A stretch of DNA of 64,000 bases from the human T2T-CHM13v2.0 reference genome, Homo sapiens. Position 1 is the first letter of the stretch. The number at the start of each line of letters is the position of its first letter. Both the position numbers and the translations under genes were made by a program. The stretch lies in the NCBI RefSeq assembly GCF_009914755.1, contig NC_060935.1; one strand, 5' to 3'. Shown here piece by piece: positions 35,476-37,374 of the stretch. A model generated the notes under the pieces. The model saw nothing but the letters and a program-made list of their open reading frames with translations. It made no database searches and was not told the origin of the DNA.

Positions 35476-36130
35476 CATTCTGCCATTTTCGATATTAACT
35501 TTGAAATCATTCTTCCAAAGATTCCTTGTAAAGAGAATGATTAAATGCAATGCATAACACATTGAATAAATACATACACACACACACACACGAAAGAGTT
35601 TTCTTAAGCTAAACTTACTTGTCATTCATTCATAGACTTAAAGCTGGCTGCATCCATTGCTGAAATCAAGGCATGCTTAGAAAACTTCTTCCCACAAATC
35701 ATCTCTCTCATCTTCAACTATCTGACAGCTTCTTTCATCAGGAGGATTTTTTAAGTAAATAACTCTGGGAGTGGTCACACCAAAAGGAGCTGAACTCTTA
35801 GTGATTGCTCAGTCCTCTCCAGGCTTAATGCACCTGCAGTCTGTGCAATTCAGTTTGGTACTTTTTCAGATGCTGCTTTAGCTATATATTAATTATAAAT
35901 GTAAATGTATAGTATGTTTCCCAAAAAACATATATATATAAATATAAAGAAAAAGAAATACTTGAAAGTCATGACAATATTGACCTCTTGTAAAAAAAAA
36001 TCTGTCAAATAACCATTTAACTACCTGTTTCACTGAAAGAGAAAATAAAGTCTGAATAAAAGACATTTGAGGACACTTCAGCTGTCTTCATCAAATAATA
36101 TATATTATACATAGTTTTCTCACCCCTCTT

Positions 36131-37312
36131 TTTTTTTTCTTTCTTTAGTTTGTGAGTTTATTGTATAAATATCCACTTTAGATTTCAATCCAGGTAAAGC
36201 ACAGGGATAGTTTCTATCTTTCTCACTGCTCTTTACTAAGTATTTTCTGTAATTTAATAGGTTCTCAATAAATGAATAAATTACTAGTCCAACCACCAGA
36301 TACTTTGAGGAAAAATTGAACGTACATCTCAGATCTAGGCTCTTAAAATACTCTTCCCTTACCTCCTGCTACCCCCACATTTTATGATCCAAGAGAAATG
36401 CCCATGAGGGTGGAGGAATGTAGGGGTTTCAGTCTATATTACCCTAACATTAAAATCGGTAATCTTGATATTTAAAAAACCCACAGCAGAAGTTGTATAC
36501 ATAGTTTTGGTGATTCCTGTTAGCCTTTTCAAGTTAAGACTGCCTGAGCCTGGCCTTTTTGCTGACTGCCAACCAACATTACCTAAAAACAAAGACACAT
36601 TGTTGCCAGGCCCTTTACTATTTATATTCTCTGCTCTTCTTTGTCTTACAAATCTGAAGTTTTTCAAAGACAGCTAAAACCCCTCATATTACTTGCCGAA
36701 TAACTAAAGGTTTATTCCATGGCATTTTTTTTTTCATTTCCATAAAGTTTGTCTCCTAATCCTTATCTATTAAGAAATTTAAATTTTTCTCAGGTACTTG
36801 GTAAACTACAATATCCTAGTTGACATTAACTTCCACGAGACTCCTACAAAGATCACATTATGCTATCTAGAGTGGGTTATTATAGGCACTAAATGTACTT
36901 TCAACTCATTTTGAATACTCAAACTTACCAGCTCTAGACTGGTGGACGTGTTGCTCCAAATTGATTGCATTTTAAGTTGCAAACTTATTTTTTGGTTCCT
37001 AAACAAGAATGCCCACTTTTCCCGCTGTGTGAAATTATCGCGTGTTCAAACCCAAAGGCTCTTTTCAGAGCCACTTAATGATTTCGATTAAGAGTTTTAA
37101 TGCTGGGTGCTGCTGTATTCTATGGGAGAAGTGTCGCCAATACAGATAAAATTTTCCTACATCACCAGTTTATTTTGCGCTTTTGACAAACACTAAGATT
37201 TTAGAGCTTGTTTGTCTTTATAAAGGTGGTGTATAACTACATTGTCCAGGCTGGTCTTAAATTCAAGCAAGTTTTCCCTCCTCGGCCTTGCTTTGTATTA
37301 CTGAGCAGATAA
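36131..37312 (-). pseudogene. Retroposed 3' read-through portion of a replication-dependent histone transcript, with 5' inversion and no coding sequence
   Basis: 14-bp TSD TTCTCACCCCTCTT at 36117-36130 and 37313-37326 followed by AA; poly(T) at 36131-36146; minus AATAAA at 36157-36162; histone stem-loop at 37057-37072 on the plus strand. Confidence 0.8.
37051..37096 (+). other. Histone 3' stem-loop plus histone downstream element (U7 site)
   Basis: CCCAAA GGCTCTTTTCAGAGCC ACTTA, then AAGAGTT at 37090-37096. Confidence 0.9.
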
Positions 37313-37374
37313 TTCTCACCCCTCTTAAGGAGCTTCTATCCCATGCACTATCTGGTATAGAAAAAGAAACACTT

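What the first reader, a model, noticed from the sequence alone, without database searches (positions are those of the whole stretch)
36117..37326. Orphan histone stem-loop: fossil of a polyadenylated read-through histone mRNA retroposed with 5' inversion
Seen: a perfect histone 3' stem-loop (GGCTCTTTTCAGAGCC, 37057-37072) with the CCCAAA and ACTTA flanks and an AAGAG downstream element, but no histone ORF. It lies in a 1.18-kb block with a 14-bp TSD, a TCTT/AA L1 endonuclease site, and a minus-strand AATAAA plus poly(A). Known: replication-dependent histone mRNAs are cut by U7 snRNP just after the stem-loop and lack poly(A), so sequence past the cut implies an unprocessed read-through RNA. 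Inference: twin priming explains why the stem-loop (plus) opposes the poly(A) (minus), with the 5'-most point at a junction near 37038. The flank GTTCAAACCCAAAGGCTC...CACTTA resembles my recollection of the H2BC9 (HIST1H2BH) 3'UTR. The copy would record a germline poly(A) isoform about 1.1 kb longer than normal, and it leaves an SLBP/U7 processing cassette in an OR cluster.
Basis: partly seen in the sequence, partly recalled or inferred. Interest (0 to 1): 0.8.

Follow-up and report, generated by a model that had tools for sequence, protein, structure and literature searches.

The report
Retrocopied tail of histone H2BC9 transcript
A 1.18-kb stretch in a chromosome 11 olfactory-receptor cluster is an old LINE-1-made DNA copy of an unusually long, polyadenylated transcript of the histone gene H2BC9, with its front part flipped during insertion; it is a tidy molecular fossil of an ordinary kind, probably without function.

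Summary
Window 36131-37312 is flanked by a perfect 14-bp target-site duplication (TTCTCACCCCTCTT). It consists of two pieces that lie side by side on chr6 of the same genome, just 3' of an H2B gene.

- Window 37039-37312 (+) matches chr6:26120508-26120781 (+) at 94% identity.
- Window 36136-37038 matches chr6:26120779-26121680 in reverse at 97% identity.
- The two pieces share 4-5 nt at the source breakpoint.
- The copy starts 6 nt after the H2B stop codon and crosses the histone stem-loop and its cleavage site uncut.
- It ends 21 nt after an AATAAA, followed by 5 untemplated A's.
- The nick site is TCTT/AA.

This is the geometry expected from LINE-1 retroposition with twin priming. The source ORF is the only locus that encodes this H2B protein at 100% identity. 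It carries the H2B-1H N-terminus and sits sixth in H2B gene order, so it is H2BC9 (HIST1H2BH). Divergence (K2P 0.040) suggests an insertion about 15-20 Myr ago.

Poly(A)+ HIST1H2BH RNA and twin-primed processed pseudogenes are both already published, so this is a new member of a known kind. Among 50 above-threshold histone stem-loops found in this genome, it is the only one outside chr1 and chr6. Nothing suggests that it functions. Outgroup empty sites and modern use of the poly(A) site could not be tested.

The parts
36117..36130 (.). Left copy of the 14-bp target-site duplication, TTCTCACCCCTCTT
   Evidence: Identical to 37313-37326. It lies exactly at the edge of homology to chr6.
36131..36135 (-). 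Remnant of the untemplated poly(A) tail (5 A on the minus strand). The T run extends to 36138, but its last 3 bases are templated by the source.
   Evidence: In one search query bases 1-5 do not align to chr6. In one search the last 5 nt of the reverse-complemented query are unaligned. The source reads ...AAAGAAAGAAA then CG.
36136..37038 (-). Direct (3') segment of the retrocopy. It equals chr6:26120779-26121680 (L008 3779-4681), the distal read-through 3' UTR of H2BC9.
   Evidence: 97% identity on the minus strand; 874 matches, 29 mismatches and 2 single-base gaps.
36157..36162 (-). AATAAA poly(A) signal of the retrocopied RNA, 21 nt before the poly(A) addition site
   Evidence: position 1151 in RNA order. 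The matching source hexamer is at L008 4655-4660, with cleavage after 4681.
37035..37039 (-). Inversion junction. Reverse-complemented, this reads GATAA, the 4-5 nt of source (L008 3778/9-3782) that is also present at 37308-37312. Base 37039 fits either segment (1-nt microhomology).
   Evidence: the source ranges 3509-3782 and 3778-4681 overlap.
37039..37312 (+). Inverted (5') segment. It equals chr6:26120508-26120781 (L008 3509-3782). It begins 6 nt after the H2BC9 stop codon and holds the stem-loop, the uncut cleavage site and the downstream element.
   Evidence: 94% identity, plus strand, full length; 258 of 274 matches, no gaps.
37052..37098 (+). Orphan histone 3' stem-loop element: stem-loop at 37057-37072 and a purine-rich AAGAG at 37090-37094
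   Evidence: Rfam RF00032, 38.4 bits against a gathering score of 34. The source element scores 40.9 bits. One A-to-G change separates them (L008 3556).
37313..37326 (.). Right copy of the target-site duplication. Its first two bases (TT) also match the source just past the inverted segment (2-nt microhomology at the internal priming site). It is followed by AA, giving the nick site TCTT/AA.

Best explanation
Window 36131-37312 is a LINE-1-mediated retrocopy, a 3'-UTR-only processed pseudogene fragment. Its template was an RNA transcribed from the H2BC9 (HIST1H2BH) locus on chr6.

- That RNA was not cut at the histone stem-loop. It ran on about 1.13 kb and was cleaved and polyadenylated 21 nt after an AATAAA.
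- L1 endonuclease nicked the chr11 target at TCTT/AA, and the T-rich 3' end primed reverse transcription on the poly(A) tail. This gave the direct segment, which is minus-sense in the window.
- The second-strand nick, 14 bp away, freed a 3' end that annealed inside the same RNA through a 2-nt match. It primed a second cDNA running towards the RNA's 5' end (twin priming).
- The two cDNAs were joined at a 1-nt microhomology. This left the upstream 274 nt inverted, which is why the stem-loop reads on the plus strand, and it duplicated 4-5 nt of RNA sequence.
- The second cDNA stopped 6 nt 3' of the stop codon, so no coding sequence was copied.
- The insertion is roughly 15-20 Myr old.

Shown: the mapping, the geometry, the TSD, the tail and the source gene. 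Inferred: that the RNA began at the H2BC9 promoter, that the event occurred in the germline or early embryo (required for any fixed insertion), the date, and that the orphan stem-loop is inert.
For: 1. Both halves have one full-length match elsewhere in the genome, and the two matches are adjacent. Window 37039-37312 maps to C6:26120508-26120781 (+) at 94%. This is 1 of the 4 non-self matches; the other 3 are short partial hits of 34-86 bp. Window 36131-37038 maps to C6:26120778-26121680 (-) at 97%, the only non-self match of 2.
2. Local alignment gives source ranges L008 3509-3782 and 3778-4681. They are contiguous, with a 4-5 nt overlap.
3. An H2B ORF lies at L008 3123-3503 (+), with its stop codon at 3501-3503, 6 nt before the copy starts.
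4. The 3' end has AATAAA at L008 4655-4660. Homology ends after 4681, where the copy continues with 5 extra A's and the source continues with CG and a GT/T-rich stretch.
5. The TSD is a perfect 14-mer, and the nick site is TCTT/AA.
6. The 3'-most end of the inverted segment abuts the TSD and its 5'-most end abuts the direct segment, as twin priming predicts.
7. Source identity: of 27 H2B protein matches, only C6:26120122-26120499 is 100% identical. It is sixth among the intact 97-100% H2B loci along chr6. Five loci with identical scores lie at positions 2, 4, 5, 6 and 8 of that order, which fits the published -C/E/F/G/I gene set. A paper labels the N-terminal peptide of this ORF as H2B 1H (passages seen, PMC9857184). 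The nomenclature table gives H2BC9 = HIST1H2BH (passage seen, PMC9526256).
8. Poly(A)+ HIST1H2BH transcripts have been reported (passage seen, PMC3661734).
9. About 20% of somatic processed pseudogenes carry twin-priming inversions (passage seen, PMC4151081).
Against: - The untemplated tail is only 5 A's. That is short even for an old retrocopy.
- The 5' end of the RNA is unknown, because the copy stops 6 nt after the stop codon. Origin at the H2BC9 promoter is therefore inferred.
- No outgroup genome was available, so no empty site was seen. A search with the left flank found no paralogous empty site.
- Present-day use of this exact poly(A) site was not verified. The main text of the Lyons 2016 paper on poly(A)+ histone mRNAs never mentions HIST1H2BH (0 occurrences). 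The passages seen from Kari 2013 give no site position.
- The two halves differ in identity: 16 of 274 against 29 of 903 mismatches, Fisher p = 0.07. This is not significant and remains unexplained.
- An upstream AATAAA (L008 4100) was bypassed by the RNA.
Confidence: 0.9

Rival explanations
1. The block is a retrocopy, but of a separate transcript that merely overlaps the H2BC9 3' flank on the same strand. Such a transcript might start inside or just after the gene, or be a non-coding RNA. It would not be a read-through of the histone mRNA itself.
For: The copy begins 6 nt after the stop codon and holds no coding sequence, so the promoter used is not recorded.
Against: The RNA has the strand of H2BC9 and starts within its short 3' UTR. 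5' truncation and early stops of the second cDNA are the rule in L1-made copies. Poly(A)+ HIST1H2BH RNA is reported. No separate promoter is evident.
Confidence: 0.05
2. A collinear retrocopy inserted first, and its 5' 274 bp was inverted later by an unrelated DNA rearrangement. Twin priming was not involved.
For: A later inversion of the 5' end would give the same order of segments.
Against: One inversion breakpoint coincides exactly with the TSD boundary. In addition, 4-5 nt of source sequence are present in both segments. Twin priming predicts this; a simple inversion does not.
Confidence: 0.02
3. The block is a DNA-level duplication or transposition of chr6 sequence into chr11, with no RNA intermediate.
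For: The copy is collinear with genomic DNA and no intron was removed. That alone cannot tell RNA from DNA.
Against: Homology ends precisely 21 nt after an AATAAA and is followed by untemplated A's. The block also has a 14-bp TSD and a TCTT/AA nick site.
Confidence: 0.01
4. The orphan stem-loop and downstream element have been co-opted. When transcribed on the plus strand, they would direct SLBP/U7-dependent 3' end formation in the olfactory-receptor cluster.
For: The element still scores above the Rfam threshold (38.4 bits). It differs from its parent by one base in the 47-nt Rfam match.
Against: - Two changes in the first 100 nt is what the overall 3.8% divergence predicts, so there is no sign of constraint.
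- The supplied annotation lists no plus-strand gene between 33094 and 56395.
- The parent element itself was bypassed by the RNA that made the copy.
Confidence: 0.02

Closest known systems
L1-mediated processed pseudogenes with 5' inversion by twin priming (Ostertag and Kazazian 2001; seen only as a citation in PMC4151081)
   Same: It has a TSD, a poly(A) end after an AATAAA and a T-rich/AA nick site. It is 5' truncated. The inverted upstream segment is contiguous with the direct segment in the source, and there is a few-nt duplication and microhomology at the joins.
   Different: The template is not a normal mRNA but the read-through tail of a replication-dependent histone gene. No coding sequence was copied, so gene-based pseudogene catalogues would miss it (inference).
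Polyadenylated transcripts of replication-dependent H2B genes, including HIST1H2BH (Kari et al. 2013, PMC3661734, passages seen)
   Same: An RNA from the same gene that escapes stem-loop cleavage and carries a poly(A) tail.
   Different: Those were measured in cultured human cells. This is a DNA record of such an RNA in an ancestral germline or early embryo, and it fixes the 3' end to one site 1.13 kb downstream. The passages I saw do not map that site.
Genuine histone 3' stem-loop elements (Rfam RF00032)
   Same: Identical 16-nt stem-loop and flanks, with a score above the gathering threshold.
   Different: It is not attached to a histone ORF and lies outside any histone cluster. It is the only such case among the 50 above-threshold matches found in this genome.

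Membership tests
L1-mediated retrocopy (processed pseudogene class) | Flanking target-site duplication | tested here: met
   A perfect 14-mer at 36117-36130 and 37313-37326, lying at the limits of homology.
L1-mediated retrocopy (processed pseudogene class) | 3' end at a poly(A) site, followed by an untemplated A tail | tested here: met
   AATAAA lies 21 nt before the end of homology, and 5 untemplated A's follow. The tail is short.
L1-mediated retrocopy (processed pseudogene class) | Target nick resembling TTTT/AA | tested here: met
   TCTT/AA on the primed strand. The consensus itself is recalled, not taken from a call.
L1-mediated retrocopy (processed pseudogene class) | A parent locus elsewhere that lacks these hallmarks | tested here: met
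   chr6:26120508-26121680 is collinear, with no tail.
L1-mediated retrocopy (processed pseudogene class) | Introns removed | tested here: inconclusive
   The copied stretch is collinear with genomic DNA. The parent gene type is intronless, so this is not informative.
L1-mediated retrocopy (processed pseudogene class) | Empty site in outgroup species | not testable with these tools
   Only this one genome is held. The left-flank search found no paralogous empty site.
Twin-priming 5' inversion | The inverted and direct segments are neighbours in the source, with the inverted one upstream | tested here: met
   L008 3509-3782 (inverted) and 3778-4681 (direct).
Twin-priming 5' inversion | The downstream end of the inverted segment abuts the TSD opposite the poly(A) end | tested here: met
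   Window 37312 (source 3782) touches the TSD at 37313.
Twin-priming 5' inversion | A small duplication or deletion at the breakpoint, and microhomology at the joins | tested here: met
   A 4-5 nt duplication, a 1-nt overlap at 37039, and a 2-nt (TT) match between the TSD start and source 3783-3784.
Histone 3' UTR stem-loop (Rfam RF00032) | Covariance-model score at or above the gathering score | tested here: met
   38.4 bits against 34.
Histone 3' UTR stem-loop (Rfam RF00032) | Sits in the 3' UTR of a histone gene | tested here: not met
   There is no histone ORF in the block, and the copy starts after the parent's stop codon.
Histone 3' UTR stem-loop (Rfam RF00032) | Directs SLBP/U7 cleavage | not testable with these tools
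   No expression or CLIP data are available here.

The most novel reading that the evidence does not exclude
The copy is more than a fossil. It would show that a poly(A)+ H2BC9 isoform ending at this exact site was abundant in the germline or early embryo of ancestral apes, a replication-independent H2B supply there. In addition, the orphan stem-loop/downstream-element cassette, the only above-threshold one found outside the chr1 and chr6 histone regions, would still bind SLBP or direct U7 cleavage of plus-strand transcripts crossing it.
Probability: 0.03. Interest if true: 0.6.

Novelty: new member of a known kind. Interest (0 to 1): 0.3.

Why it matters
- Replication-dependent histone mRNAs normally lack poly(A) tails, so they should rarely be copied by LINE-1. 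This locus is a datable DNA record that an unprocessed, polyadenylated H2BC9 transcript existed in heritable cells some 15-20 Myr ago.
- It pins that transcript's 3' end to one canonical site 1.13 kb past the stem-loop.
- It is a textbook-clean example of twin priming on a non-L1 template.
- It warns that a perfect histone stem-loop can occur with no histone gene nearby.
- It does not reveal a new mechanism. Both ingredients are already in print.

Tried and rejected
- **Chance match of the stem-loop:** rejected (0 of 100 shuffles; Rfam E = 4.4e-9).
- **Paralogous empty site:** a search with the left flank, 35400-36130, gave 52 matches. Apart from the self match, nearly all were hits of 60-96 bp to the first ~95 bases of the query, a dispersed repeat. 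One was a local 158-bp repeat (window 37821-37978, 89%) that stops 20 bp short of the TSD. No empty site was obtained.
- **Naming the gene through solved structures:** the Protein Data Bank chains matched are labelled 1-C/E/F/G/I, 1-J, 1-K, 2-E and so on, none 1-H. This was uninformative, and the name was settled instead.
- **Lyons 2016 (PMC5100578):** searched for HIST1H2BH, germ, testis and oocyte, with 0 occurrences.
- **Prior description of histone read-through retrocopies:** a search for 'replication-dependent histone' + 'processed pseudogene' + 'stem-loop' found 4 papers, none on this subject by title or abstract start. 'HIST1H2BH' + 'polyadenylated' found 22 papers, of which 15 were listed. 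I opened five of those and read only passages in them: PMC3661734, PMC12867764, PMC9526256, PMC4151081 and PMC9857184. No supplements were read, so poly(A)-site tables there may bear on whether the site is already mapped.

Full report
**Observation**

The 16-nt histone stem-loop GGCTCTTTTCAGAGCC occurs once in the window, at 37057-37072 on the plus strand. None of 100 shuffles gave a match. Rfam's Histone3 model (RF00032) matches 37052-37098 (+) at 38.4 bits, above its gathering score of 34 (E = 4.4e-9).

- the 14-mer TTCTCACCCCTCTT at 36117-36130 and again at 37313-37326 (identity checked);
- AA after the right copy, which gives a TCTT/AA nick site;
- an 8-T run at 36131-36138;
- TTTATT at 36157-36162, which is AATAAA on the minus strand;
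- an AAGAG at 37090-37094.

**Source of the block**

The window's own genome could be searched.
- Window 37039-37312 (+) gave 5 matches. One is the window itself. One is a full-length match at 94% to C6:26120508-26120781 (+). The other three are short partial hits of 34-86 bp.
- Window 36131-37038 (+) gave 2 matches. One is the window itself. The other is C6:26120778-26121680 on the minus strand at 97%, covering query bases 6-908.

So the two halves lie next to each other on chr6, in opposite relative orientation.

A local alignment against an 8-kb piece of chr6 (L008) refines this.
- The inverted piece equals L008 3509-3782, with 258 of 274 bases matching and no gaps.
- The direct piece equals L008 3778-4681, with 874 matches, 29 mismatches and 2 single-base gaps.
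- The two source ranges overlap by 4-5 nt (GATAA). The one base at window 37039 fits either piece.
- The whole 1182-bp block is accounted for: 5 untemplated A's, 903 nt direct and 274 nt inverted.

**What lies at the source**

L008 holds a 126-aa H2B ORF at 3123-3503 (+) and a divergent H3 ORF at 1667-2077 (-). Each is followed by an above-threshold stem-loop.
- The H2B stop codon is at 3501-3503, and the copy starts at 3509.
- The stem-loop is at 3527-3542.
- The copy runs straight across the normal cleavage position, which by recalled knowledge lies about 5 nt after the stem.
- It continues to 4681, 21 nt after the AATAAA at 4655-4660.
- Past that point the source reads CG followed by a GT/T-rich stretch, while the copy carries A's.

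The template was therefore an RNA that was not cleaved at the stem-loop and was polyadenylated about 1134 nt further on. An earlier AATAAA (L008 4100) and an ATTAAA (4559) were passed over.

**Which gene it is**
- Of 27 H2B-like protein matches in the genome, only C6:26120122-26120499 is 100% identical to this ORF.
- The intact 97-100% H2B loci along this part of chr6 lie at 25.911, 25.992, 26.026, 26.052, 26.068, 26.085, 26.120 and 26.141 Mb. This locus is the sixth counting from 25.992 Mb.
- Five loci with identical scores lie at positions 2, 4, 5, 6 and 8 of that list. This fits the published grouping of identical proteins 1-C/E/F/G/I. That grouping appears as a molecule name and as the shared accession in the nomenclature table.
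- The ORF's N-terminal peptide is labelled 'H2B 1H' in PMC9857184 (passages seen).
- H2BC9 = HIST1H2BH in PMC9526256 (table passage seen).

**Mechanism**

The geometry is that of twin priming.
- On the plus strand, the left TSD is followed directly by T's and then by the reverse complement of the RNA's 3' end. This is a first cDNA primed on the poly(A) tail from a nick at TCTT/AA.
- On the minus strand, the right TSD is followed directly by the reverse complement of source ...3782. This is a second cDNA primed inside the RNA from the other nick, 14 bp away.
- The first two bases of the TSD (TT) match source 3783-3784, a 2-nt microhomology at the internal priming site.
- The 5'-most points of the two cDNAs meet at 37038/37039 with a 1-nt overlap.
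- 4-5 nt of RNA sequence are present in both cDNAs.

A later DNA inversion would not produce that duplication, nor would it place one breakpoint exactly on the TSD. A DNA-level duplication would not end at a poly(A) site with untemplated A's. A review passage reports that 20% of somatic processed pseudogenes carry twin-priming inversions (PMC4151081), so the process is well known for non-L1 templates.

**Age**

Copy and parent differ at 45 of about 1171 sites (26 transitions, 19 transversions) plus 2 single-base indels. This gives K2P = 0.040. Only 3 of the 45 differences fall in source CpGs.

With recalled primate neutral rates of 1.0-1.2e-9 per site per year on both lineages, this gives about 16-20 Myr. 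Counting error is about 15%, and the uncertainty in the rate is larger. The halves differ somewhat (5.8% against 3.2%), but not significantly (Fisher p = 0.07).

**How unusual it is**
- The exact 23-mer around the stem-loop occurs 22 times in the genome: 21 on chr1 and chr6 and 1 here, with 0 in the reversed-pattern control.
- A genome-wide Rfam Histone3 search scored 75 of 653,906 first-look candidates, so its counts are lower bounds. It returned 65 matches at E <= 0.001.
- Of those, 50 exceed the gathering score: 49 on chr1 or chr6, and 1 is this locus.
- The 15 below threshold comprise 7 on chr6 and single or few hits on chr12, chr11 (119.1 Mb), X, Y, 18 and 2.
- The 908-nt distal part has no other copy in the genome, so this RNA left one surviving retrocopy.

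**Function**

Nothing points to a function.
- The 47-nt Rfam match differs from its parent by one base (source 3556).
- The first 100 nt carry 2 changes, as the overall divergence predicts.
- The supplied annotation lists no plus-strand gene across the site.
- The parent element was itself bypassed by the RNA that was copied.

I rate co-option as unlikely.

**What is already known**

Poly(A)+ HIST1H2BH transcripts were reported in Nutlin-3a-treated HCT116 cells (PMC3661734, passages seen). The main text of Lyons 2016 does not mention the gene (0 occurrences). A search for 'replication-dependent histone' + 'processed pseudogene' + 'stem-loop' returned 4 papers, none on such retrocopies judging by title and abstract start. 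I read no supplements, so an existing poly(A)-site table may already list the site.

**Limits**
- No outgroup genome was available, so no empty site was seen.
- No expression, poly(A)-site or CLIP data were available.
- The RNA's 5' end is not recorded.
- The tail is short (5 A's).

**Verdict**

It is a new and clean member of a known kind, an L1-made, twin-primed retrocopy. It has modest added value as a fossil of a polyadenylated read-through histone transcript.

Noticed in passing
window 35940-36097 and 37821-37978: A 158-bp direct repeat (89% identity) brackets the retrocopy and the neighbouring Alu. No other copy turned up among the 40 of 2838 candidates scored in that search (a lower bound). 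It is more diverged than the retrocopy is from its parent, so it is probably an older local tandem duplication into which both elements later inserted. It stops 20 bp short of the TSD, so it does not provide an empty site.
   Followed up: partly
window 37376-37836: An Alu element (SRP-RNA-like Rfam hits at 37376-37492 and 37511-37659) has a long (GAAA)n/(GA)n tail. It lies only about 50 bp from the retrocopy. It may have its own short target duplication, AGAAA(C/T)ACTT, read by eye.
   Followed up: no
G000 C3:116824519-116824821, C7:152380992-152381231, C21:41920783-41921160: H2B-like open frames lie outside the chr1 and chr6 clusters: 84% over aa 26-126, 81% over aa 47-126, and 97% over the full length. 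The first two may be further retrocopies of histone mRNAs.
   Followed up: no
G000 C1:121126161-121126625 and C1:142976158-142976622: Two H2B loci near the chr1 centromere each carry one in-frame TAG but keep an exact 23-mer stem-loop that scores above the Rfam threshold. They look like pseudogenised duplicates of cluster genes.
   Followed up: no
G000 C23:94007387, C23:89244493, C24:4053165, C23:100438054, C18:44297847, C2:34941515: Histone3 matches just below the Rfam threshold (31.0-33.2 bits) on X, Y, 18 and 2. They could be chance matches or further decayed orphan stem-loops.
   Followed up: no
L008 3680-3760 (chr6 source), window 37210-37290: The read-through UTR contains a short stretch with 75-85% matches on chr17 and chr12. 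By eye it resembles an antisense Alu-type fragment, so an old repeat fragment was carried along in the retrocopy.
   Followed up: no
L008 3499-3504: An AATAAA hexamer overlaps the H2BC9 stop codon, upstream of the stem-loop. Its significance, if any, is unknown.
   Followed up: no
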